Shown here one piece after another: positions 1 through 13,580 of a stretch of DNA of 59,977 nt. Origin of the DNA: a virus (Duplodnaviria; Caudoviricetes); IMG/VR virus record IMGVR_UViG_3300031949_000040, positions 1 to 59,977 of that record; one strand, given 5' to 3'. The notes under the pieces were generated by a model. That model did no database searches, was not told the origin of the DNA, and saw only the letters and a list, made by a program, of their open reading frames with translations. The position numbers and the translations under genes are program-made. Each line of letters starts with the position of its first letter. Within the stretch, counting starts at the first letter, position 1.

Positions 1-147
1 TCACCGAAATAGAAAAAACGTTGGCTTATTTCTGGACTTATGTAATGAACGATGGGGCGTGTGAATAGTGCCAGCATCTACCGTAACCGTCGCCCAAATA
101 TGCACCGCCATAGACGCCACGCTCGGCGCGGCTCTTGTCGCCTCCGG
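1..147. repeat. Terminal direct repeat, left copy (147 bp; circular assembly overlap)
   Basis: 1-147 equals 59831-59977 except C127 vs A59957. Confidence 0.95.
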
Positions 148-544
148 TGACCTGGTCGAGAGCCAAAACTATAACGAGCTAACCGAAGGAATGAACGATG
201 AAAAGGTGTTGCAGATTTACCCAGAGGAGCAAACGCCGGTCTCTGTTGGCTCCGGCGCCCAAAAACTAACCTTTGGCTCTACGCCGTTTATTGACGAAGA
301 GATTGTCATTCACGCCGATTACTACGGCCGCCAGCGGTCACACATTGGCGAGGATATGGCCCAACTTGTTAGCGGCATTGACGCGATCAGGGTCAATCTC
401 AAAACGCAGAATTGCCCTAATCCATTTGGGCTAACGGGCATTGCTAATTTTCAATGGTCATGGCGGCGCACGGTGTTTGAGTATGGCGGGCCGGAGCTTA
501 AGTATATTGGGGCAAGGTTTAGGTTGGTATTGAGGACGTTCTAA
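68..544 (+). CDS. Putative tail terminator/tail completion protein
   Basis: 158 aa, GTG start; follows the HK97-gp10-like gene across the origin and precedes the major tail gene; positional inference. Confidence 0.6.
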   Translation: MPASTVTVAQICTAIDATLGAALVASGDLVESQNYNELTEGMNDEKVLQIYPEEQTPVSVGSGAQKLTFGSTPFIDEEIVIHADYYGRQRSHIGEDMAQLVSGIDAIRVNLKTQNCPNPFGLTGIANFQWSWRRTVFEYGGPELKYIGARFRLVLRTF

Positions 545-1014
545 TGAATGAAGAAATAAAAACACTGGTAACTATTATCAATCATCGTGCTCAAGTTGCG
601 GCCCGGCTTCGAGAATTGGCGCAACAACTAGAGAAGCGGGCAAACCTACACGACTTATCAAAGTTCAAACTCGATGAGCTTGATGGGTACGTCAAGCTAA
701 ATGTTTCCCGTAGGTTTCCGGGTGAGTCTCCCATTCCGTATGATTCGCCAGAGTACAAAGCAATACTCGAAAGCAATAAAAGCCCTCTTGAGCTTCATTT
801 TGCCAGAAATAGGCATCATCCCGAATTTCACACCAATGGCGTTAGCGACATGGCGCTCATTGATTTTATTGAAATGGTAGTTGACTGGCTTGCTGCTACT
901 GAGGCTTACGGCACTCCATTTAGGCAAGGTCTGGAAAAGCAAACGGGTTTGTATAACCTGCAACCAGACCACCTATACCTAATTGACTTAATAGCACGGC
1001 ACTTTGGAGAGTAG
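544..1014 (+). CDS. DUF5662-like HD-type phage protein
   Basis: HDLSKF, HFARNRHHPE and EMVVDW motifs typical of this family. Confidence 0.6.
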   Translation: MNEEIKTLVTIINHRAQVAARLRELAQQLEKRANLHDLSKFKLDELDGYVKLNVSRRFPGESPIPYDSPEYKAILESNKSPLELHFARNRHHPEFHTNGVSDMALIDFIEMVVDWLAATEAYGTPFRQGLEKQTGLYNLQPDHLYLIDLIARHFGE

Positions 1015-1016
1015 CT

Positions 1017-1355
1017 ATGTATCGAATGGTCAGACACACCCCGCTCTCCAGCGGTCACAAATACGGCGACATTATCAGGGATGGCGAGCTATCACCCGCC
1101 ACAATTCAAAAGTTTCTGGCGAGTGGGACGTTGGTTCGCGTCTCTACGCCGCCGCTATCCGAACTGCCCCAATGGGAGAAACGGCCCGAGCTGGCTGCGC
1201 TGGCTCGGGCGAATGTCATTACTATAGAGGACTTAATTCGCGCCAACGAAACCGAACTGGCAAAGGCGATCAGAAAATCAGTACGCACCATCCGGCAATG
1301 GAAAGACGAGGTAATGGTATGGCTAAATCCTGAACCACCTAAAGAAAACGGCTGA
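1017..1355 (+). CDS. Hypothetical protein with C-terminal helix-hairpin-helix-like segment
   Basis: ANVITIEDLIRANETELAKAIRKS pattern; in the late operon. Confidence 0.45.
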   Translation: MYRMVRHTPLSSGHKYGDIIRDGELSPATIQKFLASGTLVRVSTPPLSELPQWEKRPELAALARANVITIEDLIRANETELAKAIRKSVRTIRQWKDEVMVWLNPEPPKENG

Positions 1356-1403
1356 GATTAAATTAACTAAGTTTCTTGTATAGAAATATGGAGGTTTTAA
1401 GAA

Positions 1404-1865
1404 ATGGCACAAACAACAGGAGCAGTTGCTCAAGCCTGCGGCAAGGTCTGGATCAGTACCGATGGGACGAGCTTTACCGATGTCAGCGGCGCAACCCAGA
1501 GCATTACACCGGGCGAGCAAACTAAAATCACCGGCGAAGCATATACCTTCGACGGTGAGACGCCTATTGTCAAGGGCGGCAAGCGCGAACCGATGGAGTC
1601 GGAAGTCGTCATTATTTATACCGAAACAGACGCCGAAGTGTATCAGGTTACACGAGCCATCTTTGAGGCAACGGGTTGCGGCGCGGCGTTTTACATTCGC
1701 TATAGCCCACGCGGGGGCAATGCCGATGATGAGCAGTTGACCAGCGGCGCGGGGACGCTGACATCGTTCACCTATCCACCAGCAGACGCCAGCGCCGGTG
1801 GGCCAATCCTGGGCGGCTTCACTGTGCGGCATCCTGGATTTACTACCACAATCATTGCGTCATAA
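1404..1865 (+). CDS. Major tail (tube) protein
   Basis: 153 aa, Thr/Gly-rich, GGAGG RBS; directly upstream of the frameshifted chaperone pair. Confidence 0.75.
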   Translation: MAQTTGAVAQACGKVWISTDGTSFTDVSGATQSITPGEQTKITGEAYTFDGETPIVKGGKREPMESEVVIIYTETDAEVYQVTRAIFEATGCGAAFYIRYSPRGGNADDEQLTSGAGTLTSFTYPPADASAGGPILGGFTVRHPGFTTTIIAS

Positions 1866-1873
1866 GGTGAGCT

Positions 1874-2167
1874 ATGAGCAAGAATGAATTACCTGGAAAG
1901 GGCAATGGGGCCACAGCCCCGACTGTAACCATTGAACTGGATATGGACAACTTCACCTGGGGCGATTTGGAGGATATTGAGAGCCAGTCACCGACGAAGG
2001 TCCGGCAAGCAATGCAAAAATTCGCAAGCATTGAAGGTGTAGCCAAAGAGGAAATGAGCGAATATCTGCGTCGGCTGTCCCTGCGCCAGATGAAGGAAAT
2101 CAGCGCCGAATTTATGAAGGCAATCCAAAGCCTGAGTAATCCAACGGGCGCGAACCAAAAAAACTAG
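1874..2167 (+). CDS. Tail assembly chaperone (G-like)
   Basis: Follows the major tail gene; ends CAA AAA AAC TAG with slippery A AAA AAC. Confidence 0.8.
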   Translation: MSKNELPGKGNGATAPTVTIELDMDNFTWGDLEDIESQSPTKVRQAMQKFASIEGVAKEEMSEYLRRLSLRQMKEISAEFMKAIQSLSNPTGANQKN

Positions 2168-2370
2168 AGATGCGCTTGGCCGAGTATTTAGGCGCAAAAA
2201 CAGGCCAAGCGCCTGGTGAGTACCTGAAATTTTATTTGCGAAGGTTGTACGGTTGCACTCCAAGCGAACTTGCAGAACAAAAAGGCGAGTTTTTCTTTGA
2301 GATGCTTTGCGATCTGAAGTGTGAATCCTGGGAGCGCCGCACCGCCCATTTCCGCCAATCGCTTCATTAA
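2158..2370 (+). CDS. Tail assembly chaperone T segment (-1 frameshift extension, GT-like)
   Basis: The -1 frame is open from the slippery site through the ATG at 2170 to the stop at 2370; contains YGCTPSEL. Confidence 0.75.
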   Translation, partial: KKLEMRLAEYLGAKTGQAPGEYLKFYLRRLYGCTPSELAEQKGEFFFEMLCDLKCESWERRTAHFRQSLH

Positions 2371-2373
2371 TTA

Positions 2374-2391
2374 CCGCCATTGCCCTGGCGT
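2374..2391. repeat. Left arm of an 18-bp perfect inverted repeat bounding the RAMP/array cassette
   Basis: CCGCCATTGCCCTGGCGT is the reverse complement of 4546-4563. Confidence 0.85.
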
Positions 2392-2392
2392 A

Positions 2393-2430
2393 GTTAAAAA
2401 GAGGGGCACTTGATAGTGCCCCTCTTTAAC
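2393..2430 (-). terminator. Intrinsic terminator ending array 1 (possibly bidirectional)
   Basis: Stem AAAGAGGGGCACT/AGTGCCCCTCTTT with a 4-nt loop; T-run on the minus strand. Confidence 0.8.
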
Positions 2431-2560
2431 CTTGCCTTGCCCTGCCAGACCTTACCTAACCCGACCAAACCTAACCTCACCGGACCGGACCGGACCTCAC
2501 CCCACCACACCCGACCGTACCCCACCAGACCTAACCTCACCGCACCCTTACCACAAGGTT
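2429..2560 (-). ncRNA. GGY-NN pentamer array 1 (putative VIPR-type guide RNA)
   Basis: On the minus strand: leader TAACCTTGTGGTAAGGGT, then 23 exact NN-GGY units (25 GGY in total), then the terminator; starts at the HNH stop codon. Confidence 0.85.
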
Positions 2561-2825
2561 ATTTCATAAATGCGTGTCTGTTTTTATGGCAATCGTGACA
2601 CAAGGTCTTTAAGTTGCTTGGGTGGTTCGTTCCACCTTCGCTTAGTTCAAGCACATGATGACAATGGGTTTTTTCATAGGCGAATTGAGTAAAGCAATAC
2701 TGACAAATGCCCAAGTCTCTTTGGTAGACCCACTGCTTAAGCGGTTTCCAAATGTCATCAGGGAGCCGGGAATACCATAAAGCCCTTAATCCTGGGAGTT
2801 CTGCAACAGAAAAATACTTGCTCAA
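2559..2825 (-). CDS. Small HNH endonuclease
   Basis: RD..CQYC, CHHVLELSEGGTNHPSNLKTLCHDCH. Confidence 0.9.
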   Translation of the reverse strand: MSKYFSVAELPGLRALWYSRLPDDIWKPLKQWVYQRDLGICQYCFTQFAYEKTHCHHVLELSEGGTNHPSNLKTLCHDCHKNRHAFMK

Positions 2826-3403
2826 ATCTTGCAGACCTCAAACTTAGTGACCATAAACCGGCCAAACTTGGGGCGAAAGTCTCCAATGCCAGAGGTACGA
2901 CCAGCCAGAATCAAGACCTCATTAACCACGTTGGCGGGTATCTGGTCATCCAAAACGGTAATCTCAAAGTCCAGTTTCCACCCTGGCTTAAAGCAAGGCC
3001 GAATCCGCACCACTCGCGCACGCTGAACAACGGCGGGCCTGACATCCAAGTAAAGCGGCTTATCAGCGTCAGCGTCAAGATCATCAGGGGCTTTGATACC
3101 GTGCAAGATTTCATCAGGGCTACAAAAGACATTACCCTTAAACAATTGGGCGTAGGTCTTACCTCTAGCGCCCTGGATTTTGTAGCCAGCCGATGCCTTG
3201 ACCATTGCCCCATCAAAATGGATGGCGGGTTGATAAACTTCGCCGTCGGGATTGATGTAAAGATGCTCTCTCCATTCCTGGCTGTAGTCCTTTTCACCTG
3301 TCCTTTTCTTGCCGCCTTTGCTCAAGTCGGCAAAATCAGGTAGTGGGTACTTGTGTTGCAACAGTGGGGCAACACCTGCGACCGAACAATTAACAGTGTA
3401 CAT
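2822..3403 (-). CDS. Stand-alone RAMP/Cas7-like RNA-binding protein (putative Vipr)
   Basis: N-terminal GVAPLLQH, VYQPAIHFDGAM, RIRPCF..W.LDF.I and a C-terminal Gly-rich loop AGRTSGIGDFRPKFGRF; adjacent to the GGY-NN arrays. Confidence 0.75.
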   Translation of the reverse strand: MYTVNCSVAGVAPLLQHKYPLPDFADLSKGGKKRTGEKDYSQEWREHLYINPDGEVYQPAIHFDGAMVKASAGYKIQGARGKTYAQLFKGNVFCSPDEILHGIKAPDDLDADADKPLYLDVRPAVVQRARVVRIRPCFKPGWKLDFEITVLDDQIPANVVNEVLILAGRTSGIGDFRPKFGRFMVTKFEVCKI

Positions 3404-3435
3404 AATTCTTTTCCTTTCTAATTTGAAATTGGGTT

Positions 3436-3465
3436 AAAGGGGAGCAAGGCGCTCCCCTTTTTTTA
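3436..3465. terminator. Hairpin between the accessory ORFs and the RAMP gene
   Basis: AAAGGGGAGC/GCTCCCCTTT stem; T-run on the plus strand. Confidence 0.6.
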
Positions 3466-3717
3466 TTCGCCGCTTTCTGACCGATCCCAAGCCTCACTAG
3501 CCGTGGCTTCAAAGTCGGACAGGTCGGCTTCGGGTTGGATCAGTTCTTGAAGTATCTCTTTAGTCGCCAACAGATGCGTCTTGGCCGCCACACGGTCAAC
3601 CCGACAAGCGCCAATGTAAAAGACTGAAAGCATTTGCCGGTTGTCGGCAATGTGGGTCAAAAAAGCCTCATACTCCAATTCGTCAAAGGCAAGACTAACA
3701 GTGTAGGTGGCGGCCAT
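3463..3717 (-). CDS. Hypothetical acidic protein (cassette accessory)
   Basis: 84 aa; start overlaps the upstream stop. Confidence 0.65.
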   Translation of the reverse strand: MAATYTVSLAFDELEYEAFLTHIADNRQMLSVFYIGACRVDRVAAKTHLLATKEILQELIQPEADLSDFEATASEAWDRSESGE

Positions 3718-4010
3718 TAAAGCACCTCCAGGACACCGACAAATTCACCACTGGCGTTAATGAGGATGCTTTGAGAGGCGTAGTTAAAGCCCTTGCGCGG
3801 CAAGCTAGCGGAGCGGCTTTTGCTAACTTTGATTTCTTGCCGCTTGGCAATCGGTTGGGCCATCGAGCGGAGCTTTGATTCTTGCTTGGGGGTTAGGCGC
3901 TCATAAGGGAATGAGCGCTCTTTGCCGCTGCGGGTGGTCACGAGGACGCGGCCAATCATCAATCGGACGTTGCTAATAAAACGGGTCTGTGGTAATCTAC
4001 ACTTAGCCAT
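3717..4010 (-). CDS. Hypothetical basic protein (cassette accessory)
   Basis: 97 aa; AAAGGTGAG RBS; first gene after the leftward promoter. Confidence 0.65.
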   Translation of the reverse strand: MAKCRLPQTRFISNVRLMIGRVLVTTRSGKERSFPYERLTPKQESKLRSMAQPIAKRQEIKVSKSRSASLPRKGFNYASQSILINASGEFVGVLEVL

Positions 4011-4090
4011 TGGAGAAACTCACCTTTCTTTGATGGTTAGAGCCGTTCGATTGTTTCCGCAATCGGGCGGCTCGTTTGATTTATGACTAC

Positions 4091-4119
4091 AGTATACCAT
4101 ACTTATATTTACCAGTCAA
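4091..4119 (-). promoter_or_regulatory. Sigma70-type promoter for the RAMP/HNH/array 1 operon
   Basis: TTGACT-17 bp-TATACT with an extended TG. Confidence 0.8.
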
Positions 4120-4162
4120 TACTACTAACCTTAAAATATTATAAATATGTCTTGGTATGTAC

Positions 4163-4192
4163 TTGACAAGACCGACGCACTTGGTTTATAAT
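4163..4192 (+). promoter_or_regulatory. Sigma70-type promoter for the RHH gene and array 2 (leaderless)
   Basis: TTGACA-18 bp-TATAAT; ATG 6 bp downstream at 4199. Confidence 0.8.
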
Positions 4193-4198
4193 GGGTAT

Positions 4199-4366
4199 AT
4201 GAAAACCGAAGTTAAAGACGTCCAAGAAAAATACACGTCCTATACTTTCAAAGCGCCTAGCGATTTGCTTGCCAGGGTTAAAGATAAAGCGGGCTTGATT
4301 CCAGTGAGTGCCATTATCCGGCGCTTGTTGGAAAAATGGCTTGCTGGCGAAGTAAACCTCGATTGA
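4199..4366 (+). CDS. Ribbon-helix-helix (Arc/CopG-like) regulator
   Basis: YTFKAPSDLLARVK...VSAIIRRLLEKWL. Confidence 0.75.
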   Translation: MKTEVKDVQEKYTSYTFKAPSDLLARVKDKAGLIPVSAIIRRLLEKWLAGEVNLD

Positions 4367-4467
4367 TAACCTTTGTGGTAAGGGTATGGTAAGGGTTTGG
4401 AGGGGCGTGGTTTGGCTAGGTCAGGTGTGGTTTGGAGGGGCGTGGTATGGTTCGGTATGGCAAGGAC
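4367..4467 (+). ncRNA. GGY-NN pentamer array 2 (putative VIPR-type guide RNA)
   Basis: Leader TAACCTTTGTGGTAAGGGT shared with array 1; 18 GG(T/C/A) units at 5-nt (twice 6-nt) spacing; starts at the RHH stop. Confidence 0.8.
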
Positions 4468-4504
4468 GTAAAGAGCTATCTTTCGGGGTAGCTCTTTACT
4501 TTTT
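4468..4504 (+). terminator. Intrinsic terminator ending array 2
   Basis: GTAAAGAGCTATC/GGTAGCTCTTTAC stem followed by TTTTT. Confidence 0.85.
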
Positions 4505-4545
4505 GAGCGTTCCTGATACAATTAACATAACTCAATAAGCACGAA

Positions 4546-4606
4546 ACGCCAGGGCAATGGCGGGTGAAAGTTATTTTATGACTTTCACCCCCCATTGCCC
4601 TTTTTT
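4546..4606 (+). promoter_or_regulatory. Right arm of the 18-bp inverted repeat, overlapping a terminator/attenuator-like hairpin upstream of the tape-measure gene
   Basis: AGGGCAATGGCGGGTGAAAGT pairs with ACTTTCACCCCCCATTGCCCT, followed by a T-run. Confidence 0.65.
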
Positions 4607-4655
4607 GTTCCGGGCGGGTGATGGTCACATCACCCGTTTTTTATTTGGGGCAGGT

Positions 4656-7600
4656 ATGAGCAACGTAATTGAAATTGTCATAAAGCAATCTTCCAGCGGC
4701 AACGCCATTCACGACGCCTCTAAAGCTCTTGGCGGCCTTTCCGGTGCAGCCGGCGGTGCTATCGGCAGCCTCGGTAAATTCGGCGGCGCTCTGGGCAATA
4801 TGGCGACGATTGCTGGCGGCATTGTGGCCGCCAACCTCTTCGGCAAAATCGCCGAGGGTATTTCGAGCTTTGTCACCACGGGCCTGAACGCCGTTGGCAG
4901 CAGCCAGCAGCTTGAAACATCGCTCAAGTCACTGCTCACTGCCAATAATATGTATGAGCAGTCTACCGAGACGGTGACGCAGGCTGTGACCAATCAAATA
5001 ATGTCACAGGATGAATATGGGCAAAAGCTCGACGAGCTTAACGCCAAGCTCGTGACCCAGCGAGCGACCTATCAGGAACAGCAGGAGCGCATCCGGCAGC
5101 TTACCGAGCAATACGGTGAAAATGGCCTGGTGGTCATCAAAAACAAGGCGCAACACGAACAACTGGCGATTGCCATTCGAGGGACAGAGCAGGACATAGC
5201 CAGCCTTGCTACAACCGAAACCAAGCTCAGTACCAGTACTGAAACGGCCTGGCATCAGGTAATGAGCCAAACCGAGGCAATGAAGATTGCCAAAAAGGAA
5301 ACGGCGAATTTGCTTGAGTTTGTTTCAAGACTTGCGGTTGTTTCCCCCTTCGAAACTGAAGATGTCGAGATGACCACCAAGTACGCAGTGGCTGCTGGCC
5401 TGGGTCTGGACCAGACTAAGCAGTTTGTACCAGCCTTTCTCGATTTGGCGGCTTCGGTGGGCATCACGTCCGACTCGCTGGGCTTCGCTGCCGACCAACT
5501 CTTTCAGGTTCGCAAAATCGGTAAGTTGACTGAAATAGACTTACGCCAGTTACGACGGCTGGGTATTGACCTGGGCAAGATCATCGGCGTTGAAATGGGA
5601 ATGAGCGTCTCGGAATTTAACGAAAAGGCCGGGGAAAGCCCTGAGATCTTTGATGAGCTTTTTGATGCCGTTACCCGCTTTTCGGCCAACACATTCGCCG
5701 GCACATCGAAGGAAATGGCACTGTCGGTCAAGGGGCTACAGTCTACCATCTCGGATGTGTTCGTTATCGGCTCACGCACGTTTTTGCGTCCACTCGTCGA
5801 TGCCTTTACGCCGGCCATTGCGGGCATAGTCGGCAAGCTGAGTGATTTCGTTTTGGGCGGTGAGATGAAGAGCCTGGGCGATGATATGGCTAAAACCCTG
5901 ATGGGTGGAATTGCCAAATTCCAAAAGAGCGGCGCGGGCGGCCTGTTTGCCTCGTTGGGTTTCGAGGGCGGGGCGCTGTTTTTCAAGAAACTGTCCAAGC
6001 TAATGACTATGATAACCGGCGACGCTGGCACATTGGCAGGCACTATCAAGGGGGTTTTGGGCGGGGCATTTGGATGGTTGCAATCAAATATGTTCCCTAT
6101 CCTGTCTAAGGGTATCCAATTTGTCATTGATGGCTTTCAGACTTTTCGAGGCGTATTGCTTGATGTGGGTACTGTTGTGGGGGATGTCGTTAAAAAAGTA
6201 ACGGGTGCTTTTGAGCGGTTTGGCTTTAGAGGTGCGGCGATTAGCATACTGGGCCAATTGGGATTAGAGCCAAGCCAAATTGCCACCGTACTACAGACTA
6301 TGGATCAGATGGTATCTAATGTTACTGGCGCCATTGACAAAATAACGGGTGCTTTTGATAGATTTGGGGTCAGAGGGGCAGCGGTTAGCATACTGGGGAT
6401 ACTAGGTTTAGAGCCAGAAACTATTGCCACGGTCCTGTCTATTACTGACCAAATAGTATCCTTTGTATCATCCTTTGTTTCTCAGGTTGGCGGCTTTCTT
6501 GGCTCTTTATCATTCGATGAAATTATTGGAGCATTTACGGGAATAGGAATTGCTGTGGGGGCAATTGTAGCTAGTGGCATACTCACTGCTTTAGTTGCTG
6601 GCTTAATGTCTCTACTCACACCAATTAACCTTATCATTGTCGGAGCAGCTTTACTAGGTGCAGCATGGGCCGGGAATTGGGGCGGCATTCAGGATAAATT
6701 CTTTGCGGCCTGGGCCGTTATTCAACCGGCCTTGCAAGAACTTTGGAACTGGCTAGGAATTAACATCCCTATAGCCATTCAGACCGCCAGCGACTTTTGG
6801 ACGAACACGCTCTGGCCCGCCTTGCAACAGGTAGGCGCTTTTATTGTTGGGACGGTCATCCCGGCGATGGTGGGTTTATGGCAATGGTTGTCAGTTAATG
6901 TCCCAATGGCTGTCCAGACCTTGAGTGATATTTGGACGAATACCCTACTCCCCGGCTTTCAACGGGTCTGGGAAGCCATACAAACCAACCTCTTGCCACT
7001 TTTTCAACAACTGTTTACCTGGCTTGCCAGCGAGGGGCCGGGAATAGCCCAAGTTCTAGGGGATGCCTGGACTAATATCATCTTACCCGCTCTTGCCGCC
7101 GTTGGTGATTTTCTGCTCAATACTCTTTTCCCGGCGTGGGTTGAGCTTCAAGTCTGGCTGGCTGAGAATATCCCGGTAGCCATTCAAATACTTTCGGACA
7201 TCTGGACGAACACCCTATTACCGGCGATTACAAATGCCGGAACCTTTATCACCGGCACACTCATACCAACCTTGACCAATCTATGGACGTGGCTGAGTAC
7301 AAACATCGTTTCGGCCATTCAAACCGTCTCGGATATATGGACTACGATTTTTATGCCAGCCATTACAGGTGTGTGGACTTTTATCAGCACACTCGTAATT
7401 CCGCTGTTTCAATCCTTAACGAACCTGATGGGCGCAGTGCTGGTTGTGGCCCTAACTGCCCTGGCAGGCCTGTGGCAAAATGTTTTATTACCGGCCATTG
7501 AGGTTGTCTCAAATTTTATCGGCGCAACTCTTACCGTTGCGCTTAACGCACTGATTGCCTTGGTTGCCCAAAGACTCGGACCGACGATCAGGGTTTTTGC

Positions 7601-8984
7601 CGCAATCTGGCAGAGTGTACTTTTGCCTGGGCTTACTGCTGTAGGCAACATTGTTAAATCCGTGGTTGCTCCAGGTCTTGAGGATGTAGGAAAAAAGGCT
7701 GGTGTAATAGGTCCGATTTTGCAGGTTCTTGCCGATGTTGCTCTAAAGGCCGTTGCGAGTGGGTTTGATGCCATAGCCGGTGCTATTAAATCAGCAACGA
7801 ATTTATTTAATACTTTGGCTGATGCGGTCAAGAATTTTAAGTTACCCGCCGTACTTCAACCCGGCTCACCTCCGCCATTTGCCGTGGCCCTACAGGACAT
7901 AGCTAATGCGGCTGGCATGGCTGCTAATGCTATGGGCGGTTTTAGCCAGGCTACGATAGATAAACTGCTAGGTGTCAACCGTGCCATAGCCTCTAATCGC
8001 AATACTATCGGCGCGGCTCGTGATGACCTTGAGAAATTCTTTGACAAGTCAAATATCGGCGGCGTCAAAGGTAATTTTGCCTTAGTTCATCTGTCAAAGA
8101 TATTCAAAGAGCACAGCGCCGAAATCCTGACGGCAACGGATAGGGCAGCCAAGTTTAGGGAGATTGTCAGTCGAGTTGGGCCAAATTGGGAAAAGGCCAT
8201 GATTAGCGGCGAACAGTGGAAGACAGTTAATGCGGGCATCGGCCTGTTCATCAATTTCTTTGATAAGCGCAAAAAAGAGTTGATCCTGGCGCAGCAGCAG
8301 ATGTTTGTTCAGGCTGGTAAAACGGCGCTGAGTATCGGGATGAGGCTGAACGACATCGTGCAAGCCAGCGTAGACGTGCTTGATATGCGGGTAGAAACCT
8401 TGCAAGGGCTGGTTTCGTCCGGGATGGCCGAGGTCAACTTTCAGGGGATGATACTATCCCAGGCGCAGGCGCAGGAGCTGCTTAACGCGGCTTTAGCTGA
8501 GCAACTTGACATTCAAGACGATATTTTCCAACTTAAACAGAACGAGCAAAAGTTGGGCTTCCTGGAAAAGCAGCTTGATTTGATTGATACGCTGAACGCA
8601 GCCGGGTTGAATGTGCAAGATATTTTGGGCGGCATAACGCTAGGGCTTGACGCTTCCATTCCTGATATGATAGAGGCTACAAATCGGCTGGTTATGGCGA
8701 TGATCGAGCAGGTGAATAAAGATTTGCAGCTTGGTTCGCCATCGAAGCTGATGTTCAAAAAGTTTCAATTGGCCGGTATGGGGGCGGTCCAGGGCTTGCT
8801 ATCAATGAAGCCGATGCTGGAGAAGGCTATCGGGCCGGTGATTGACCCGTTGATGTCGGCGGGGAATGGGGCGGTGTCCAACCGCACAACTAACAACTAC
8901 TTTTCGCAGACAGTCAACACGCGAGCCGAAAGCTCGACAGTGATTGGCGATTTCAGAACGATGCAGATGCTGCTAGGGGCGTAG
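4656..8984 (+). CDS. Tail tape measure protein
   Basis: ~1440 aa; SPFE tape-measure motif and Trp-periodic helical repeats; start moved to MSNVIEIVI (the ORF track gives 4557). Confidence 0.92.
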   Translation: MSNVIEIVIKQSSSGNAIHDASKALGGLSGAAGGAIGSLGKFGGALGNMATIAGGIVAANLFGKIAEGISSFVTTGLNAVGSSQQLETSLKSLLTANNMYEQSTETVTQAVTNQIMSQDEYGQKLDELNAKLVTQRATYQEQQERIRQLTEQYGENGLVVIKNKAQHEQLAIAIRGTEQDIASLATTETKLSTSTETAWHQVMSQTEAMKIAKKETANLLEFVSRLAVVSPFETEDVEMTTKYAVAAGLGLDQTKQFVPAFLDLAASVGITSDSLGFAADQLFQVRKIGKLTEIDLRQLRRLGIDLGKIIGVEMGMSVSEFNEKAGESPEIFDELFDAVTRFSANTFAGTSKEMALSVKGLQSTISDVFVIGSRTFLRPLVDAFTPAIAGIVGKLSDFVLGGEMKSLGDDMAKTLMGGIAKFQKSGAGGLFASLGFEGGALFFKKLSKLMTMITGDAGTLAGTIKGVLGGAFGWLQSNMFPILSKGIQFVIDGFQTFRGVLLDVGTVVGDVVKKVTGAFERFGFRGAAISILGQLGLEPSQIATVLQTMDQMVSNVTGAIDKITGAFDRFGVRGAAVSILGILGLEPETIATVLSITDQIVSFVSSFVSQVGGFLGSLSFDEIIGAFTGIGIAVGAIVASGILTALVAGLMSLLTPINLIIVGAALLGAAWAGNWGGIQDKFFAAWAVIQPALQELWNWLGINIPIAIQTASDFWTNTLWPALQQVGAFIVGTVIPAMVGLWQWLSVNVPMAVQTLSDIWTNTLLPGFQRVWEAIQTNLLPLFQQLFTWLASEGPGIAQVLGDAWTNIILPALAAVGDFLLNTLFPAWVELQVWLAENIPVAIQILSDIWTNTLLPAITNAGTFITGTLIPTLTNLWTWLSTNIVSAIQTVSDIWTTIFMPAITGVWTFISTLVIPLFQSLTNLMGAVLVVALTALAGLWQNVLLPAIEVVSNFIGATLTVALNALIALVAQRLGPTIRVFAAIWQSVLLPGLTAVGNIVKSVVAPGLEDVGKKAGVIGPILQVLADVALKAVASGFDAIAGAIKSATNLFNTLADAVKNFKLPAVLQPGSPPPFAVALQDIANAAGMAANAMGGFSQATIDKLLGVNRAIASNRNTIGAARDDLEKFFDKSNIGGVKGNFALVHLSKIFKEHSAEILTATDRAAKFREIVSRVGPNWEKAMISGEQWKTVNAGIGLFINFFDKRKKELILAQQQMFVQAGKTALSIGMRLNDIVQASVDVLDMRVETLQGLVSSGMAEVNFQGMILSQAQAQELLNAALAEQLDIQDDIFQLKQNEQKLGFLEKQLDLIDTLNAAGLNVQDILGGITLGLDASIPDMIEATNRLVMAMIEQVNKDLQLGSPSKLMFKKFQLAGMGAVQGLLSMKPMLEKAIGPVIDPLMSAGNGAVSNRTTNNYFSQTVNTRAESSTVIGDFRTMQMLLGA

Positions 8985-11534
8985 ATGTGGAAAAGAATAC
9001 CTGTCATCCTGTTACTTTGGCTACTCTACCTTCCAGGCACTTTGTCCGCAATCCCCGTCACGGCCCAAGAGCCAAGCTTCAAAGTTTACCTTCCGTTAAT
9101 CTATTCAATCGACGATCCTTGTAGTGAGCCGATAATGTCAGACTGGAAAATTGTTGTACCCGAAAGCACCCTAAATCGCTGTCTCAACCCTTCCGCCGAA
9201 ACAACGGGGAATTTTGCGGCATTGGCTGGGACTACGGTTACACGGGTCACGAGTTTTCAGAATTATGGATTGAATAGCTATCGAGTGGAAACCAATGCCG
9301 ATAACGAGGGGGAAACATTCGACCTTTCGGCTTTAGCTAACGCCATTCACTATGTCACCGTGCGGGTGACGGGCACATTGCCCGCCTCGTGGGATTGGTC
9401 ACTCGATAATGCCACGTACACAAGCCCCACCTTACTAGAGGCCATTGATGGCACCTGGTCACTCTACGGTCTACAAGTTCCGGCGGCCCAAGCTAACGGC
9501 TCGGTATTGCTATACATTCGCCAGAACGGCTCCGGCTCCGGCGATTTCTACCTTGACGGTATCCAGGTAGAGGAAAAGAGCTATTACACAACCTACTGCG
9601 ACGGCACGCAGCCGGGCTGTGAGTGGAACGGGCCGGAACACGCCTCGACCAGCCAGCGCAGCGCCAGCAGCCGGGCGGGCGGTAGAGTGCAGGATTTACA
9701 GGATGATTATTACCTCAACATCGGCGGCATGATTGGCACGGGCGCATCACCGCAAACTCTGGGGCTGGATAGCTACGCCCTTTTACCGGGGGGCGAACTC
9801 AATAATATCAAAGTGGGTAGTCGGGTGTTCACCTTGACCGGCGTCATCACCGGTACCAGCCAAAGCGATTTTCACAGCAAAAAGCAGACGCTGCTTAGTG
9901 CTTTGATTGGTGGCTTGCAGCCGGTGCGGTTGCGCTACAACGGCGCTACCGTTCACAAGGAGATAGCCGCACATTATGAGGGTGGATTAGAGGGTGAGCT
10001 ATCCGCTTCGGATCCGTGCGCGTGGGAGCGAGTGGCCGTGCGCTTCCTTGCACCAAATCCCTACTGGTCAGAGATAGGCGAGAGCGCGGCGGCTTTGGAT
10101 ACGAATGATAGCGCCACGTTCACAGTAGTGGCGGCCAGGCTCAGAAGCACGGGGCAGTGGTCGGCGCTGGGGCCACCTAGTGCAAGTGGGACGTATACGG
10201 CGGTTAATGCCCTGGCCGAGGATGCAACTTATATCTACATCGGCGGTAATTTCCTTAACTTCGATAATATTGCGGCGGCTGATAGGATTGTTAGATACAA
10301 CAAGCAAACCGGCGTTTACTCAGCTATGGGAACGGGCACGAACGGGATTGTTCATGCGCTTGCCGTTGGGCCAGATGGCTCAGTGTACGCCGGTGGGTTT
10401 TTTACAGCAGCCGGGGGGGTAGCCAATACCGCTTATATTGCCAGGTGGGACGGTAGCGCCTGGAACGCACTAGGTACGGGGATGGATTTCACAGTTAACA
10501 ATCTTATCTTTGGCTTAGATGGCACACTCTATGCCGGAGGCGACTTCACTTTGGCCGGGGGGGTAGCCAATACCGTAAGGATTGCGGCCTGGAGCGGCAC
10601 AGCCTGGTCCGCGTTAAGCACTGGGGCGAATGGGATTGTTCGGGCTTTTGCCGTCGGGTTAGACGGCACGCTTTACGCAGCCGGGGCATTTACGACAATC
10701 GGCGGTGTGTCTGCCAACCGCATAGCCTCATGGAATGGGACGGCTTTCACCGCCCTGTCTAGTGGCTCAAGCGTTTCTATATTCGCTCTTGCTATCGACC
10801 CAGCCGGGCTACTGTACGTGGGTGGTTCATTTACGACAATTGGCAGCGTAGCGGCCAATCGTGTCGCATCCTGGAATGGTAGCACGTTTAACGCTTTGGG
10901 AGACGGGGCAAATACTGGCGTTGTTTCCGATATAGTTATTGGAGCGGATGGTACGCTCTACGCTGGGGGTACCTTTACAACAGCCGGGGGTATCACTTTA
11001 GCCGATAGGGTAGCACGTTGGAACGGTTATGCCTGGGCACATTTAGACATTGATTTACCAGGAAGTCCCGACATAACTGCTATCCTTGCCAGCAAATACG
11101 TTGACCCAGTAGTCGAGCAACAGTATTCACTATATCTCGGCTTTGACACCACCGGCGCCGGCACATTCGCCGGAAAGACCACCGTCGTCAATGACGGTAC
11201 TGCTCCCGCTTTCCCCAAAGTCATCTATGAGCGCAGCGGCGGCACGACCGCCATAATTGAGACGCTTAAAAATGAGACAGCGGGGTTGGAACTGCTATTC
11301 AATTATTCGCTTCTGAGCGGCGAACGATTGACGATTGACCTGACGCCAACCCAAAAGAGCATTGTCAGCAGCTTCTTTGGACAAAGACAGGATGCGATTT
11401 TGCCTAACAGTGATTTTGGCGAATGGTCATTGGCGCGGGGCAGTAGTGATGTGACTTCGTTTGTGGGGACAAGCGGTAGTCCGACGGTGACGGCCTATTT
11501 GTTGTGGAAAGATAACTACACCAGCCACGATTAA
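8985..11534 (+). CDS. Distal tail/baseplate protein with carbohydrate-binding-like N-terminus and beta-propeller insertion
   Basis: Follows the tape measure; FLAPNPYW Dit-like motif; repeated LYAGGxFTxAGG..IAxWxG blades; alternative start at 9135. Confidence 0.7.
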   Translation: MWKRIPVILLLWLLYLPGTLSAIPVTAQEPSFKVYLPLIYSIDDPCSEPIMSDWKIVVPESTLNRCLNPSAETTGNFAALAGTTVTRVTSFQNYGLNSYRVETNADNEGETFDLSALANAIHYVTVRVTGTLPASWDWSLDNATYTSPTLLEAIDGTWSLYGLQVPAAQANGSVLLYIRQNGSGSGDFYLDGIQVEEKSYYTTYCDGTQPGCEWNGPEHASTSQRSASSRAGGRVQDLQDDYYLNIGGMIGTGASPQTLGLDSYALLPGGELNNIKVGSRVFTLTGVITGTSQSDFHSKKQTLLSALIGGLQPVRLRYNGATVHKEIAAHYEGGLEGELSASDPCAWERVAVRFLAPNPYWSEIGESAAALDTNDSATFTVVAARLRSTGQWSALGPPSASGTYTAVNALAEDATYIYIGGNFLNFDNIAAADRIVRYNKQTGVYSAMGTGTNGIVHALAVGPDGSVYAGGFFTAAGGVANTAYIARWDGSAWNALGTGMDFTVNNLIFGLDGTLYAGGDFTLAGGVANTVRIAAWSGTAWSALSTGANGIVRAFAVGLDGTLYAAGAFTTIGGVSANRIASWNGTAFTALSSGSSVSIFALAIDPAGLLYVGGSFTTIGSVAANRVASWNGSTFNALGDGANTGVVSDIVIGADGTLYAGGTFTTAGGITLADRVARWNGYAWAHLDIDLPGSPDITAILASKYVDPVVEQQYSLYLGFDTTGAGTFAGKTTVVNDGTAPAFPKVIYERSGGTTAIIETLKNETAGLELLFNYSLLSGERLTIDLTPTQKSIVSSFFGQRQDAILPNSDFGEWSLARGSSDVTSFVGTSGSPTVTAYLLWKDNYTSHD

Positions 11535-11537
11535 GCT

Positions 11538-12731
11538 ATGTCCAAGAAGATTGCCCTATTCACCACATTTTTTGAGGCCGACAGCGGCTATTCCCTGATC
11601 ACCGTAGCTGAAACCCAAATCAGGATGCTGCTAGATCACGGCTATGAGCCAATTGTCCTGGTAGATGAGCGTTTCAAAAGCGACAAGGCGCTGTGGCAGC
11701 CGACTACCATAGATGTACGGCCGGTCATTCCTCCTCTTGGCGCGCCAGCCAATTCAATCCTGATAGCCCTGCACGAACACCTCGCCAACGTAGACGTGTG
11801 CATCACTCACGACATCGTTTTGTTGAATGATTACAAGGCACACGACCTGGCTATGAGGGAATACGCCAAATCGAGGGACAATCTGCTATGGTTGCACTGG
11901 CTTCATTCCTGCCCCAGCGGGCAGCGCGAAACACCACCCGGCTATCTCATCTATCCGAACGCCAGCGATAAGCCGCGAGTATGCCAGGTGTACGGCCTGT
12001 CCGGGCAGGAGCACCGGGTTGTACCTTGCCGGGCGGCGCACTCGATAGACCCGCTCAGCGTGTGGAACTATGACGCACTGACCCGCAGCCTGATAGGTAA
12101 ATTCAATTTGCTCGATGCGGAGGTGAGTGCGGTTTACCCAGTACGATTGGACCGCGGGAAACAGGTAGAGAAGGTCATTCGTCTATTGGCTGGGGGCAAG
12201 CGGGCGGGCTATGCGGTCAAGCTGCTGGTTATTGATTGGCAATCTACCGGGGCGCATTTCCAGAAGTACATTGACGAATTGATTGAACTGGCCTGGACGT
12301 TGGGAGTGGGTAACGATGTGGCCTTTACCAGCCGGTTGGATGATAGATGTAGTCAGGGTGTGCCACGGCACGTGGTTACTGAGCTGATGGACCTTAGTTC
12401 AATTTATATACATCCAAGCCGGGTTGAGACATACAGCTTGGTTGTGCACGAGGCGCTCTTGAGGGGTAAGTTGGTCTGTCTCAATCACGATTTCCCGGCT
12501 TTTCGGGAATTGTTTGGAGAGGCAGGCATCTACTTCGATTTCGGCTCAGATAGATTTGAGCGCACCTATGAGCCTGATATTCAATCATTTTTCGATGACG
12601 AAGCCCATAGATTGATTGCTGAATTGCGGCAAAACCGGGCGCTGATGGCTCAGACGAAGGCGCGGCGGGAGTGGGGGCCGGAGGTAATGTGGCGAGAATT
12701 TGAGCAACTATTTCACTTGAAACCTTGCTAA
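11538..12731 (+). CDS. Glycosyltransferase, GT-B (GT4-like)
   Basis: RLDRGK and YIHPSRVETYSLVVHEA motifs. Confidence 0.85.
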   Translation: MSKKIALFTTFFEADSGYSLITVAETQIRMLLDHGYEPIVLVDERFKSDKALWQPTTIDVRPVIPPLGAPANSILIALHEHLANVDVCITHDIVLLNDYKAHDLAMREYAKSRDNLLWLHWLHSCPSGQRETPPGYLIYPNASDKPRVCQVYGLSGQEHRVVPCRAAHSIDPLSVWNYDALTRSLIGKFNLLDAEVSAVYPVRLDRGKQVEKVIRLLAGGKRAGYAVKLLVIDWQSTGAHFQKYIDELIELAWTLGVGNDVAFTSRLDDRCSQGVPRHVVTELMDLSSIYIHPSRVETYSLVVHEALLRGKLVCLNHDFPAFRELFGEAGIYFDFGSDRFERTYEPDIQSFFDDEAHRLIAELRQNRALMAQTKARREWGPEVMWREFEQLFHLKPC

Positions 12732-12756
12732 TAAAAAAGCCCCGGTTAGGGGGCTT
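12732..12756 (-). terminator. Terminator between convergent genes
   Basis: AAAAAAGCCCC-GGTTAG-GGGGCTT. Confidence 0.65.
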
Positions 12757-12760
12757 GAAA

Positions 12761-13048: not shown

Positions 13049-13052
13049 AGGA

Positions 13053-13283: not shown

Positions 13284-13284
13284 G

Positions 13285-13536: not shown

Positions 13537-13580
13537 TTTTTAACCCTTTCGTTAATTGAGTAACTTGAATTTGTATCTAT

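What the first reader, a model, noticed from the sequence alone, without database searches (positions are those of the whole stretch)
2188..2241. Self-avoidance by synonymous first-position recoding at Leu/Arg codons
Seen: the eight shared A/E/Y/G/P residues match the guide dinucleotide exactly, as the genetic code forces. All four shared Leu/Arg residues use the alternative codon family relative to the guide: self TTA vs guide CT, CTG vs TT, TTG vs CT, CGA vs AG. Established: only Leu, Arg and Ser can change the first two codon bases silently. Inference: a wobble-skipping guide cannot be escaped by third-position changes, so the phage (or the guide) diverged at exactly the sites that allow it. 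With only four sites this is suggestive, not proven.
Basis: partly seen in the sequence, partly recalled or inferred. Interest (0 to 1): 0.85.

Follow-up and report, generated by a model that had tools for sequence, protein, structure and literature searches.

The report
Phage gene mismatched to own guide
A phage carries a small RNA-guided (VIPR) cassette with a nuclease, and its last guide spells a variant of the neighbouring tail gene; the phage's own copy avoids that guide through many codon changes, four of them silent Leu/Arg switches that may be adaptive but are not proven to be.

Summary
Observation confirmed. The window holds an HNH-linked VIPR cassette (a Cas7-like Vipr protein and two YNNGG vrRNA arrays) between the tail-chaperone genes G/T and the tape-measure gene. 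Under the published one-base-skip rule, the 24 dinucleotides of the HNH-proximal vrRNA spell a homologue of the phage's own gene T at 2179-2250. Nine of 24 dinucleotides are identical, and the protein-level score is 75 against 29 for the next best window. Codon usage alone gives this with P=0.056.

New support:
- A sister phage (G001) carries the cassette at another site and shows the mirror image.
- Across both footprints, 5 of 6 conserved Leu/Arg codons are switched, against 70 of 239 elsewhere (P=0.011).
- A contig from a close relative carries a more guide-like allele with Leu CTG.

Against:
- Eleven other mismatches are amino-acid changes, so the resident allele would reach only 13/24 even without the switches, far below the 80% criterion.
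- Other guide/self pairs show 8 of 13 switched, which is not significant.

Verdict: this is the resident, guide-mismatched allele of a flank-directed guide, probably part of a homing-type element. Silent Leu/Arg switching is plausible but unproven.

The parts
1874..2167 (+). Tail assembly chaperone G (97 aa), ending in the A AAA AAC slippery run (2158-2164) and a TAG stop
   Evidence: ORF; sequence. It sits between a 153-aa putative tail protein and the tape-measure gene. A-run slippery sites are also seen in relatives L001, L006 and G001. No Pfam or PHROG hit, so the name rests on synteny.
2170..2370 (+). ORF T, the -1 frame extension of the chaperone (66 aa as an ORF); it holds the guide footprint
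   Evidence: Homologues in L001/L007, L006, L096 (G001) and L002/3.
2172..2212 (+). Stem-loop 8 nt downstream of the slippery run (10-bp stem, GCGCUUGGCC/GGCCAAGCGC), a likely frameshift stimulator; it overlaps guide units 1-11
   Evidence: A stem forms at the same place in W, G001 (12 bp, z -5.4), L006 and L001. Its function is inferred.
2179..2250 (+). Footprint of vrRNA1 on the resident T allele: 9/24 NN identical, 4 Leu/Arg family switches (2188 TTA, 2224 CTG, 2236 TTG, 2239 CGA), 11 amino-acid differences
2374..2391 (.). Left arm of an 18-bp perfect inverted repeat that brackets the cassette (partner at 4546-4563)
2398..2427 (.). 13-bp hairpin with T-runs on both strands; it would terminate both T (+) and the vrRNA1 transcript (-)
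   Evidence: I4; sequence.
2420..2562 (-). vrRNA1: leader CTTGTGGTAAGGG followed by about 24 YNNGG units, directly downstream of the HNH gene
   Evidence: The same leader stands before arrays in L042 and L004.
2559..2825 (-). HNH endonuclease (88 aa), the accessory (vap-like) gene
   Evidence: Pfam PF01844 E 1.9e-10; PHROG HNH families.
2822..3403 (-). Vipr-like RAMP protein (193 aa)
   Evidence: phrog_4652, function unknown. 319 homologues. 76 of 80 homologue loci carry YNNGG arrays on the same strand. AF2 model pLDDT 82; best PDB matches are Cas7 of type VII and Csm3/Cmr4, E 1e-7, TM 0.6.
3463..4010 (-). Two small ORFs (84 aa and 97 aa) of unknown function at the head of the - strand operon
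   Evidence: No family hit.
4091..4192 (.). Divergent promoter-like sites: TTGACT-17-TATACT (-) and a 12/12 TTGACA-18-TATAAT (+)
   Evidence: consensus scan only.
4200..4366 (+). Small ribbon-helix-helix-like protein (the ORF is listed from 4157; ATG at 4200 follows the promoter)
   Evidence: Pfam RHH_1 E 0.026, below the cut-off. A similar small gene precedes vipr in L042.
4367..4499 (+). vrRNA2: the same leader, 14-15 YNNGG units, then a terminator hairpin (4468-4499)
   Evidence: No self homologue and no target found.
4546..4563 (.). Right arm of the 18-bp inverted repeat
4656..8984 (+). Tape measure protein
   Evidence: PHROG 1272/58, E 1e-20.
11235..11303 (+). Cassette-free allele, in the 849-aa minor tail gene, of the footprint of sister phage G001's HNH-proximal guide: 15/23 NN match with Leu CTT and CTG, where G001's own allele has 12/23 with TTA and TTA
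   Evidence: gene named.

Best explanation
The stretch is the resident, guide-mismatched allele of the target of the cassette's own last guide RNA.

Anatomy:
- A VIPR cassette of about 2.2 kb sits between tail-chaperone gene T and the tape-measure gene.
- Divergent promoters drive two units: a small RHH-like gene followed by vrRNA2, and two small ORFs followed by the Vipr RAMP protein, an HNH nuclease and vrRNA1.

Mechanism known for the family (published): Vipr protomers bind one YNNGG unit each and present the NN bases, which pair with double-stranded DNA while every third base is skipped.

What the sequence shows: read that way, vrRNA1 spells 24 codons of a T allele close to, but different from, the phage's own.

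What I infer:
1. The guide, with Vipr and HNH, is aimed at T alleles of related phages that lack the cassette, for competition or for homing-type copying of the cassette into them.
2. The linked resident allele is safe because 15 of 24 dinucleotides mismatch. Eleven mismatches come from mostly conservative amino-acid changes and four from first-base switches between the two codon families of Leu and Arg.
3. Those four switches are real and all point away from the guide. I put about 40% on their being kept by selection for self-avoidance and about 50% on ordinary divergence.
For: It is a VIPR system:
- Cas7-like fold of the 193-aa protein.
- YNNGG arrays beside 76 of 80 homologue loci.
- HNH domain.
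- Each array ends in a hairpin with a T-run; the scan called the one after vrRNA2 and the one after vrRNA1 is the 13-bp hairpin.
- My parser plus the 1-nt skip rule recovers cross-locus matches of 83-92% NN in another clade, as in bioRxiv 10.64898/2026.04.26.720920 (Results read).

The guide is a homologue of the adjacent gene:
- Protein-level score 75 against 29 for the next window, z 8.9.
- The footprint lies 170 bp from the array in a 60-kb genome.

The layout recurs in other insertion contexts:
- L042/G001: the HNH-proximal guide hits the convergent 850-aa tail gene 265 bp away, score 82 against a null maximum of 54.
- L004: portal C-terminus 132 bp away, score 67 against 56.
- L040/L041: two arrays, 130 bp and 318 bp from their hits.

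Presence/absence polymorphism: G001 is syntenic with the window, has no cassette between T and the tape-measure gene, and carries one after the tail gene instead.

Mismatch of the resident allele:
- Self 9/24 NN, against 12 (G001), 11 (L006) and 10 (L001).
- A contig of run X2 follows the window to 2187 and then reads L(CTG) G T R I G Q A P P. That is 7/10 NN of guide units 4-13, against 3/10 for self.

Leu/Arg:
- 4 of 4 switched in the window.
- 2 of 2 guide-shared Leu are TTA in G001 where the window has CTT and CTG.
- Over both footprints 5/6 against a background of 70/239, P=0.011.
Against: - No natural target with at least 80% NN match was found. Three patterns gave 0 hits in viral contigs. 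The best whole-footprint alleles are 50% (T) and 65% (tail gene).
- Only 3 of 8 HNH-linked loci with a post-HNH vrRNA show a significant flank homologue; the 5 others do not.
- No cleavage, expression or homing data exist. HNH activity and vrRNA ends are inferred.
- For the Leu/Arg sub-claim: P=0.056 from codon usage; the tests are post hoc and include the sites that raised the idea.
- Outside the window, Leu/Arg are switched in 8 of 13 pairs (P=0.18 at 45%) and Leu/Arg/Ser in 10 of 23.
- Background switching at conserved Leu between these phages is already 32%.
- With the four sites matched, self would still be only 13/24.
- Guide TT and AG may stand for Phe and Ser.
- Phage mosaicism or a co-conversion tract could also give a locally divergent patch.
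Confidence: 0.7

Rival explanations
1. One reading: the four Leu/Arg first-base switches were fixed by selection. They are the only silent way to break pairing with a wobble-skipping guide, so the resident allele was recoded for self-avoidance.
For: - 4 of 4 in the window.
- At L4 the window alone has TTA, while G001, L006, L001 and the X2 contig have CTN. L006 has CTA, CTG and AGA where the window has TTA, TTG and CGA, each a single first-base change.
- Mirror image in G001: TTA and TTA against CTT and CTG.
- 5/6 against 70/239, P=0.011.
- 3 of 3 conserved Leu switched in G001's footprint, P=0.034 at the background rate.
- Self is the best protein-level match but the worst NN match.
Against: - P=0.056 from codon usage.
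- 11 amino-acid mismatches already keep self at 37.5%, and it would be 54% with the four matched.
- Other loci: 8 of 13 Leu/Arg, not significant.
- Ser is rarely switched (2 of 10).
- The target's residues at the TT and AG units are unknown.
- Small, post hoc sample.
Confidence: 0.35
2. Neutral divergence: the guide targets a related allele, and the Leu/Arg family differences are by-products of near-saturated synonymous change and of the window's fairly high TTR use.
For: - Conserved Leu are switched in 48 of 148 sites and Arg in 22 of 91 between the window and G001 outside the footprints.
- 18 of 42 Leu against L001 and 6 of 11 against L006 (that count includes some wrong-frame ORF pairs).
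- TTR is 34% of Leu.
- Outside the window, 10 of 23 Leu/Arg/Ser are switched.
Against: Several weak signals point the same way: P 0.056, 0.034 and 0.011 (not independent). In all six switched guide-shared sites in the window and G001, it is the cassette-bearing allele that departs from the guide.
Confidence: 0.5
3. Local RNA or composition constraint: codon choice at the start of T is set by the frameshift-stimulating stem-loop (2172-2212) or by local base composition, not by the guide.
For: The footprint overlaps a conserved stem-loop just after the slippery site. Four of five Leu codons in 2170-2250 are TTR, against none of four in the rest of T (sequence).
Against: L4 (2188-2190) lies in the loop, and L16, L20 and R21 lie outside the stem. 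This does not explain the mirror pattern in G001's tail gene.
Confidence: 0.1
4. The array acts on the phage's own T gene, for example to tune G:GT expression through partial pairing, rather than on foreign alleles.
For: Adjacency (170 bp) and overlap with the frameshift region.
Against: Only 9/24 NN match. The authors report that perturbing NN pairing abolished silencing, and that no guide matched its own contig at 80% or more.
Confidence: 0.05

Closest known systems
VIPR systems (Vipr RAMP protein plus vrRNA of GGY/NN repeats), described for phage SUSP1 and a Pseudomonas fulva prophage (bioRxiv 10.64898/2026.04.26.720920, .720927, 10.64898/2026.10.15.759431)
   Same: - About 20-kDa Cas7-like protein.
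- YNNGG arrays with conserved GG(Y) and variable NN.
- One-base skip aligned with codon wobble positions.
- Phage-borne, with guides that resemble genes of related phages.
- An accessory gene is present.
   Different: - The accessory gene is an HNH nuclease in a phage. The discovery paper places nuclease types mainly in host defence islands.
- The HNH-proximal guide resembles the gene directly beside the cassette.
- The own allele is a recognisable but mismatched homologue.
- The papers' text, as far as I searched it, does not mention flank-directed guides, homing or Leu/Arg escape. Supplements were not visible.
Free-standing (intronless) homing endonucleases of T4-like phages, e.g. Seg and Mob proteins
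   Same: - Nuclease cassette inserted between conserved genes.
- Present or absent among relatives.
- Recognition site in the neighbouring gene of cassette-free genomes, near the insertion point.
- Resident allele protected by sequence differences.
   Different: Here recognition would be by a programmable RNA-protein filament rather than by the nuclease's own DNA-binding domain. Cleavage and co-conversion are untested.
TnpB/IscB omega-RNA-guided nucleases of IS200/IS605 elements that re-cut the empty donor site
   Same: A mobile element carries a guide directed at the sequence beside its own insertion site and uses it for selfish retention or spread.
   Different: - There the guide is a contiguous copy of the flank and the occupied site is protected by the insertion itself.
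- Here the guide is a 5-for-3 recoded image of a coding sequence, and protection is by allele divergence.
Synthetic 'cleave and rescue' gene drives: guide plus nuclease linked to a recoded, uncuttable copy of an essential gene
   Same: A 'poison' (the guide against an essential gene) is tightly linked to an 'antidote' (a resistant allele), with silent recoding as one route to resistance.
   Different: This is natural and phage-borne. Resistance is mostly through amino-acid changes, and no drive behaviour has been shown.

Membership tests
VIPR system | Small RAMP (Cas7-like) Vipr protein with an RRM core and a glycine-rich loop | tested here: met
   193 aa. AF2 model pLDDT 82. Foldseek PDB top hits are Cas7 of type VII, Cmr4 and Csm3, E about 1e-7, TM 0.6. 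The C-terminal G-rich stretch is invariant among 27 homologues.
VIPR system | vrRNA locus of tandem YNNGG units (9-16 in the discovery paper, up to 30 in the structure paper) with conserved GG(Y) and variable NN | tested here: met
   Array 1 has 24-26 units and array 2 has 14-15 units. Arrays lie beside 76 of 80 Vipr-homologue loci.
VIPR system | Invariant structured 3' tail after the repeats | tested here: inconclusive
   Both arrays end with TAAAGAG, which opens a terminator hairpin. No covariation analysis was done, and there is no resemblance test against the SUSP1 tail.
VIPR system | Recognition by the 1-nt skip rule, with the skip aligned to the wobble position | tested here: met
   The own-gene homologue stands out only with skip 1 and in frame. 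Cross-locus matches of 83-92% NN in another clade.
VIPR system | Natural target with at least 80% NN match in a competing element | tested here: not met
   0 hits for three patterns in viral contigs. The best alleles are 12/24 (G001), 15/23 (the reciprocal guide) and 7/10 over the visible part of the X2 contig. The databases hold few relatives, so absence is weak evidence.
VIPR system | vrRNA expressed and bound by Vipr | not testable with these tools
   No RNA run is listed for this sequence.
Homing endonuclease cassette | Nuclease cassette present or absent at the same site among otherwise syntenic relatives | tested here: met
   G001 has about 290 bp between T and the tape-measure gene and carries its cassette after the 850-aa tail gene. 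The window has the reverse arrangement. L006 has T directly followed by the tape-measure gene.
Homing endonuclease cassette | Recognition site lies in the cassette-free allele close to the insertion point, and the resident allele is not recognised | tested here: inconclusive
   Footprints lie 130-265 bp from the arrays in the window, L042 and L004. Cassette-free alleles match better than resident ones (12 against 9 of 24; 15 against 12 of 23), but none reaches 80%.
Homing endonuclease cassette | Double-strand cleavage and copying of the cassette by recombinational repair | not testable with these tools

The most novel reading that the evidence does not exclude
HNH-linked VIPR cassettes are natural RNA-guided homing (or 'cleave-and-rescue') elements of phages.
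- The vrRNA next to the HNH gene is programmed against cassette-free alleles of the gene that flanks the insertion site.
- The linked resident allele is kept immune.
- Part of that immunity is bought with first-base switches between the two codon families of Leu and Arg. This is the one silent escape route that a wobble-skipping guide leaves open, and the published claim that such guides cannot be escaped silently overlooks it.
Probability: 0.3. Interest if true: 0.85.

Novelty: new variant of a known kind. Interest (0 to 1): 0.6.

Why it matters
The VIPR papers argue that skipping the wobble base makes the guide immune to silent escape. Leu and Arg are the exceptions: CTR/TTR and CGR/AGR differ by one silent first-base change. 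This locus and its sister phage are the first places where that loophole can be examined in nature.

If the switches are selected, they mark self/non-self discrimination in a system that has no PAM. They also predict where targets can escape.

A second, independent point: a guide that spells the gene next to its own nuclease-bearing cassette, in three different insertion contexts, suggests that some VIPR systems spread as RNA-guided homing elements rather than acting only as silencers. That would link VIPR to the biology of homing endonucleases and guide-carrying transposons.

Both ideas can be tested directly with reporter and co-infection assays in laboratory E. coli.

Tried and rejected
Searches for relatives and targets
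- A search for the window in annotated phage records found no match (megablast of 1-12000). Vipr by tblastn gave one weak partial hit.
- Perfect-target searches in viral contigs gave 0 hits for units 1-12, units 11-20 and a relaxed pattern.
- The T protein in the 5.8-billion-protein set returned only itself. T ORFs are probably rarely called, so this says nothing about rarity.
- A T profile in metagenome contigs and genome contigs gave 5 relatives each, mostly distant.
- The same profile matched 4 of 401 genomes of the phylum of one MAG hit, all distant and unalignable in the footprint.
- The tail-protein profile in viral contigs returned only G001 again.

Guides other than vrRNA1
- Guide 2 (4391-4465) has no self homologue and no match above background in the window or G001.
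- The internal guides of L042 are likewise at background.
- Five further HNH-proximal guides, parsed by hand, have no significant self homologue.

A test of how 'self' differs from real targets, run in the clade that shows 80% or better cross-matches, was uninformative. Of 5 guides, only one had a self homologue, with 4 non-synonymous and 0 silent differences.

Rfam gave only sub-threshold microRNA-like hits on hairpins.

Sequencing runs
- No RNA holder is listed.
- Run X2 leaves most of the cassette uncovered, or covered only at low depth, while the flanks stand at depth 12-21. The tool warns that a hole proves nothing, so I do not claim that the X2 relative lacks the cassette.

Ideas dropped
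- I first considered that the arrays were protein-coding (the 5-nt period gives 5-aa repeats in ORF 4386-4538) or were iterons for the RHH protein. I dropped both once the VIPR papers and the array/Vipr co-occurrence were seen.
- The count mixed true genes with wrong-frame ORF pairs. It was replaced.

Papers: what I saw
- Discovery paper: outline; Results (both parts); Discussion; the Methods section on type classification; term passages.
- Structure paper: abstract in the search listing and term passages only.
- Satellite paper: Discussion and term passages.
- No supplements were seen. They may list HNH-type loci, self-scores or flank relations.

My statement that homing and Leu/Arg escape are not in print rests on two kinds of search:
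- The paper search.
- In-paper term searches. 'homing' gave 0 in all three papers. 'leucine', 'arginine' and 'six-fold' gave 0 in the satellite paper only; I did not search the other two for them.
Full report
What is at the coordinates

The window is a 59,977-base virus record, and it is the whole genome held. Positions 2188-2241 lie in a 66-codon ORF (2170-2370, +). This ORF is in the -1 frame of the preceding 97-codon ORF (1874-2167), which ends in an A AAA AAC run and a TAG stop. Downstream comes a 1,442-residue protein that matches PHROG tape-measure families. By synteny the two small ORFs are the tail assembly chaperone G and its frameshift extension T; neither has a Pfam or PHROG hit. 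A 10-bp stem-loop starts 8 nt after the slippery run. Stems form at the same place in three relatives.

The 'guide'

About 2.2 kb is inserted between T and the tape-measure gene. The insert is bracketed by an 18-bp perfect inverted repeat (2374-2391 and 4546-4563).

Its contents are:
- Divergent promoter-like sites, one of them a 12/12 consensus.
- On the + strand, a small RHH-like gene followed by a 5-nt-period array (4391-4465) and a terminator.
- On the - strand, two small ORFs, a 193-aa protein (phrog_4652, function unknown) and an 88-aa HNH endonuclease (PF01844, E 1.9e-10), followed by a second array (2549->2420) and a hairpin with T-runs.

Both arrays read YNNGG and share the leader CTTGTGGTAAGGG.

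A literature search found the matching system, VIPR (Results and Discussion read). In VIPR, a small ancestral RAMP protein (Vipr) binds vrRNAs made of GGY/NN repeats. The NN bases pair with double-stranded DNA while one base in three is skipped, and that base usually falls on the codon wobble position.

The membership tests give the following:
- The 193-aa protein folds confidently (pLDDT 82). Its best PDB matches are Cas7 proteins (type VII Cas7, Csm3, Cmr4; E about 1e-7, TM 0.6).
- It has 319 homologues in the large protein set.
- Of the 80 homologue loci kept from 106 found in IMG/VR, 76 carry YNNGG arrays on the gene's strand.
- My parser, used with the 1-nt skip rule, recovers guide-target matches of 83-92% between related prophage loci of another clade. 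This reproduces what the authors describe.

So the cassette is a VIPR system with an HNH accessory gene.

Checking the observation

The NN series of the - strand array is GC GA TA CT GG AC CG GT GG GA CC CC CC GA TA TT CG TA AA CT AG AA AA TA. I laid it on the + strand with one base skipped.
- The best match in the window is at 2179-2249, with 28 of 48 bases and 9 of 24 dinucleotides; the next best place has 24 bases.
- I then translated the guide into the residues each NNx can encode and scored it with BLOSUM62 against all six frames. The window at 2179-2250 (AEYLGAKTGQAPGEYLKFYLRRLY) scores 75. The next best window scores 29; the mean is -23 and the sd is 11.
- The guide is therefore a true homologue of the start of T.
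- The eight 'forced' matches are there too, but three of them (A, E, Y) lie at 2179-2187, just outside the stated coordinates. A ninth (Y) lies at 2248-2250.
- The other 11 positions are amino-acid differences, mostly conservative: A/T, K/R, T/V, Q/E, A/P, G/P, K/R, F/Y, Y/K-N, R/K-N, L/K-N.

Is four out of four more than chance?

From 74 ORF-defined genes, TTR makes up 34% of Leu codons and AGR 27% of Arg codons. The probability that all four sites fall in the family opposite to the guide is 0.056. Two of the four are ambiguous on the guide side, because TT can be Phe and AG can be Ser.

Relatives

No close record exists in the annotated phage set. T homologues were found in several places:
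- L001/L007 (44% identity).
- L006 (60% identity; a 1,357-bp contig in which T is followed directly by the tape-measure gene).
- More distant loci.
- The contig of locus L042, called G001 (60,033 bases, 92% complete), at 48% identity.

G001 is syntenic with the window over the tail module. It has about 290 bp and no cassette between T and the tape-measure gene. It carries a related cassette (Vipr 82% identical) further down, after an 850-aa tail gene. The two phages therefore serve as each other's cassette-free control.

At the T footprint the dinucleotide matches to the window's guide are 9/24 for the window itself, 12 for G001, 11 for L006 and 10 for L001. Yet the window's own allele has the highest protein-level score: 75, against 73, 64 and 50.

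At the four sites the alleles compare as follows (V and A are amino-acid differences):

| Site | Guide | Window | G001 | L006 | L001 |
|---|---|---|---|---|---|
| L4 | CT | TTA | CTG | CTA | CTG |
| L16 | TT | CTG | CTG | GTA (V) | GTG (V) |
| L20 | CT | TTG | GTC (V) | CTG | GCG (A) |
| R21 | AG | CGA | AGG | AGA | CGC |

It fails at L4 (0 of 3 share the window's family) and L20 (0 of 1), and largely at R21 (1 of 3).

The mirror image

G001's HNH-proximal guide (23 units) has its best match in G001 in the convergent 850-aa tail gene, 265 bp away: 12/23 NN, local score 82 against a null maximum of 54. In the window, which has no cassette at that site, the homologous stretch (11235-11303) matches 15/23. 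Both guide-shared Leu codons are CTT and CTG in the window and TTA and TTA in G001; a third conserved Leu is CTA against TTA.

I counted all conserved Leu/Arg codons between the two phages in same-strand gene pairs:
- Leu/Arg: 5 of 6 are switched inside the two footprints, against 70 of 239 elsewhere (Fisher one-sided P=0.011).
- Leu alone: 4/5 against 48/148 (P=0.046).
- With Ser added: 5/7 against 102/340 (P=0.031).
- The three Leu of G001's footprint, which played no part in raising the idea, give 0.034 at the background rate.

A guide-like allele in nature

Contigs of two public runs were laid on 1400-5200. Run X1 holds the stretch whole and may be its source. Run X2 holds a relative about 92% identical over 1695-2122.

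One X2 contig follows the window up to 2187 and then runs on unlike it. Its first 30 letters are in register, since GGC CAA GCG is shared, and read L(CTG) G T(ACT) R(CGT) I G Q A P P.
- That is 7 of 10 dinucleotides of guide units 4-13, against 3 of 10 for the window.
- Its Leu is in the guide's family.
- Between the window and this allele, five of the ten codons differ in their first two bases. One difference is silent (Leu) and four change the residue.
- Only 30 of the 62 loose letters are shown, so the rest of the footprint is unseen.

Evidence against a dedicated recoding

(i) The resident allele is already far from the guide. With the four sites matched it would reach 13/24 (54%). The authors used 80% or more to call targets, found no guide matching its own contig at that level, and report that perturbing NN pairing abolished silencing.

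(ii) I scanned 305 arrays from 96 sources for protein-level homologues in their own locus, each calibrated on 20 other loci. Fourteen stood out. In the eleven distinct pairs other than the window's (counting hand-parsed L004, and L040/L041 once):
- Leu/Arg/Ser are switched in 10 of 23.
- Leu/Arg in 8 of 13.
- Leu in 6 of 9.
- At a neutral expectation of 45% these give P = 0.64, 0.18 and 0.17.

(iii) All tests are small and post hoc, and they are not independent of one another.

(iv) A mosaic boundary or a co-conversion tract would also give a locally divergent patch.

(v) The start of T also carries the stem-loop after the slippery site, which may constrain some codons. However, the four sites lie in its loop or outside it.

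What the locus most likely is

The stronger and more general result is that the vrRNA next to the HNH gene spells the gene beside the cassette.
- Significant cases: the window (T, 170 bp away), G001/L042 (tail gene, 265 bp) and L004 (portal C-terminus, 132 bp; 11/17 NN; score 67 against a null maximum of 56). These are three different insertion sites, each with the guide converging on the 3' part of the neighbouring gene.
- Two arrays in the unrelated loci L040/L041 also resemble the gene just upstream.
- Five other HNH-linked loci with a post-HNH array show nothing significant, so the count is 3 of 8.
- Internal guides and the window's second guide match nothing in either phage.

Taken together, the presence/absence polymorphism, the nuclease gene, and a guide aimed at a variant of the flanking gene while the linked resident allele is mismatched give the layout of a free-standing homing endonuclease, with recognition handed to an RNA-protein filament. 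I therefore read 2179-2250 as the resident 'immune' allele.

Shown:
- The system type.
- The guide/gene homology.
- The mismatch pattern.
- The polymorphism among relatives.
- The recurrence at other sites.

Inferred:
- That vrRNA1 is made and loaded.
- That HNH cuts at the bound site.
- That the cassette spreads by repair.
- That the mismatches are maintained by selection.

Comparison with what is known, and novelty

The system itself has been in print since 2026 (three bioRxiv preprints; I did not see their supplements). The authors stress that wobble skipping blocks silent escape.

In the text I could search, 'homing' occurs in none of the three papers. 'Leucine', 'arginine' and 'six-fold' do not occur in the satellite paper, the only one I searched for them. 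Nucleases appear only as predicted accessory genes of types placed mainly in defence islands.

The Leu/Arg loophole and a flank-directed guide in an HNH-bearing phage cassette are therefore, as far as I can tell, new aspects of a known kind of system. The parallels to T4 Seg/Mob homing endonucleases, to TnpB/IscB guide-assisted transposon retention and to synthetic cleave-and-rescue drives are recalled from memory and were not checked here.

Verdict
- The guide/self relation is real and highly significant.
- The specific claim of self-avoidance by silent Leu/Arg switching gains independent but modest support (P about 0.01-0.06, in the predicted direction in two phages).
- It is neither needed for, nor the main source of, the mismatch.
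- I give about 0.35-0.4 to selection on these codons, 0.7 to the 'resident allele of a flank-directed guide' reading, and 0.3 to the full homing-plus-recoding picture.

Noticed in passing
window 2157-2212: An A AAA AAC slippery run is followed 8 nt later by a 10-bp stem-loop. A stem forms at the same place in G001 (12 bp, z -5.4), L006 and L001, with compensating changes. The vrRNA1 footprint starts inside this probable frameshift stimulator, so the guide's target is constrained at both RNA and protein level.
   Followed up: partly
window 2374-2391 and 4546-4563; also 4551-4601: An 18-bp perfect inverted repeat brackets the whole cassette. The right arm is part of a further 24-nt hairpin. No such repeat was found around the cassettes of L042 or L004. 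It may be an element end or a recombination scar.
   Followed up: partly
L041 6255-6565 and 10487-10917 (same as L040): In a 188-kb viral contig with a distant Vipr (35% identity), two vrRNA arrays each lie 130-320 bp downstream of a gene whose 3' part they resemble (10/19 and 7/13 NN). The array-beside-its-own-homologue layout is therefore not limited to HNH-linked cassettes.
   Followed up: partly
L016/L017 4825-5368: A second HNH-like match (37% identity) and three more YNNGG arrays lie 2-3 kb upstream of the main cassette. This may be a second or decayed cassette.
   Followed up: no
window 4163-4192: A perfect sigma-70 consensus (TTGACA-18-TATAAT) lies in front of the small RHH-like gene, facing a second promoter-like site for the vipr operon. 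This looks like an autoregulated divergent control region.
   Followed up: no
window 11531-14740 versus L097: About 3.2 kb after the 849-aa tail gene of the window has no blastn counterpart at the matching place in G001, where G001's cassette sits. Only 12803-13048 matches, and it does so elsewhere in G001 (20413-20658). The gene content of this stretch was not examined.
   Followed up: no
window 6195-6460 and 20947-21121: Tandem repeats of 144 bp (1.8 copies, inside the tape-measure gene) and 51 bp (3.4 copies, 91% matches).
   Followed up: no
window 2835-3404 (run X2): Run X2 holds low-depth contigs about 82-88% identical to parts of the vipr gene, at a depth far below that of the T and tape-measure flanks. 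A related cassette probably sits in a different, rarer genome of that sample.
   Followed up: no
window 544-1014: A DUF5662 protein (E 6e-28) lies among the tail and head-tail genes.
   Followed up: no
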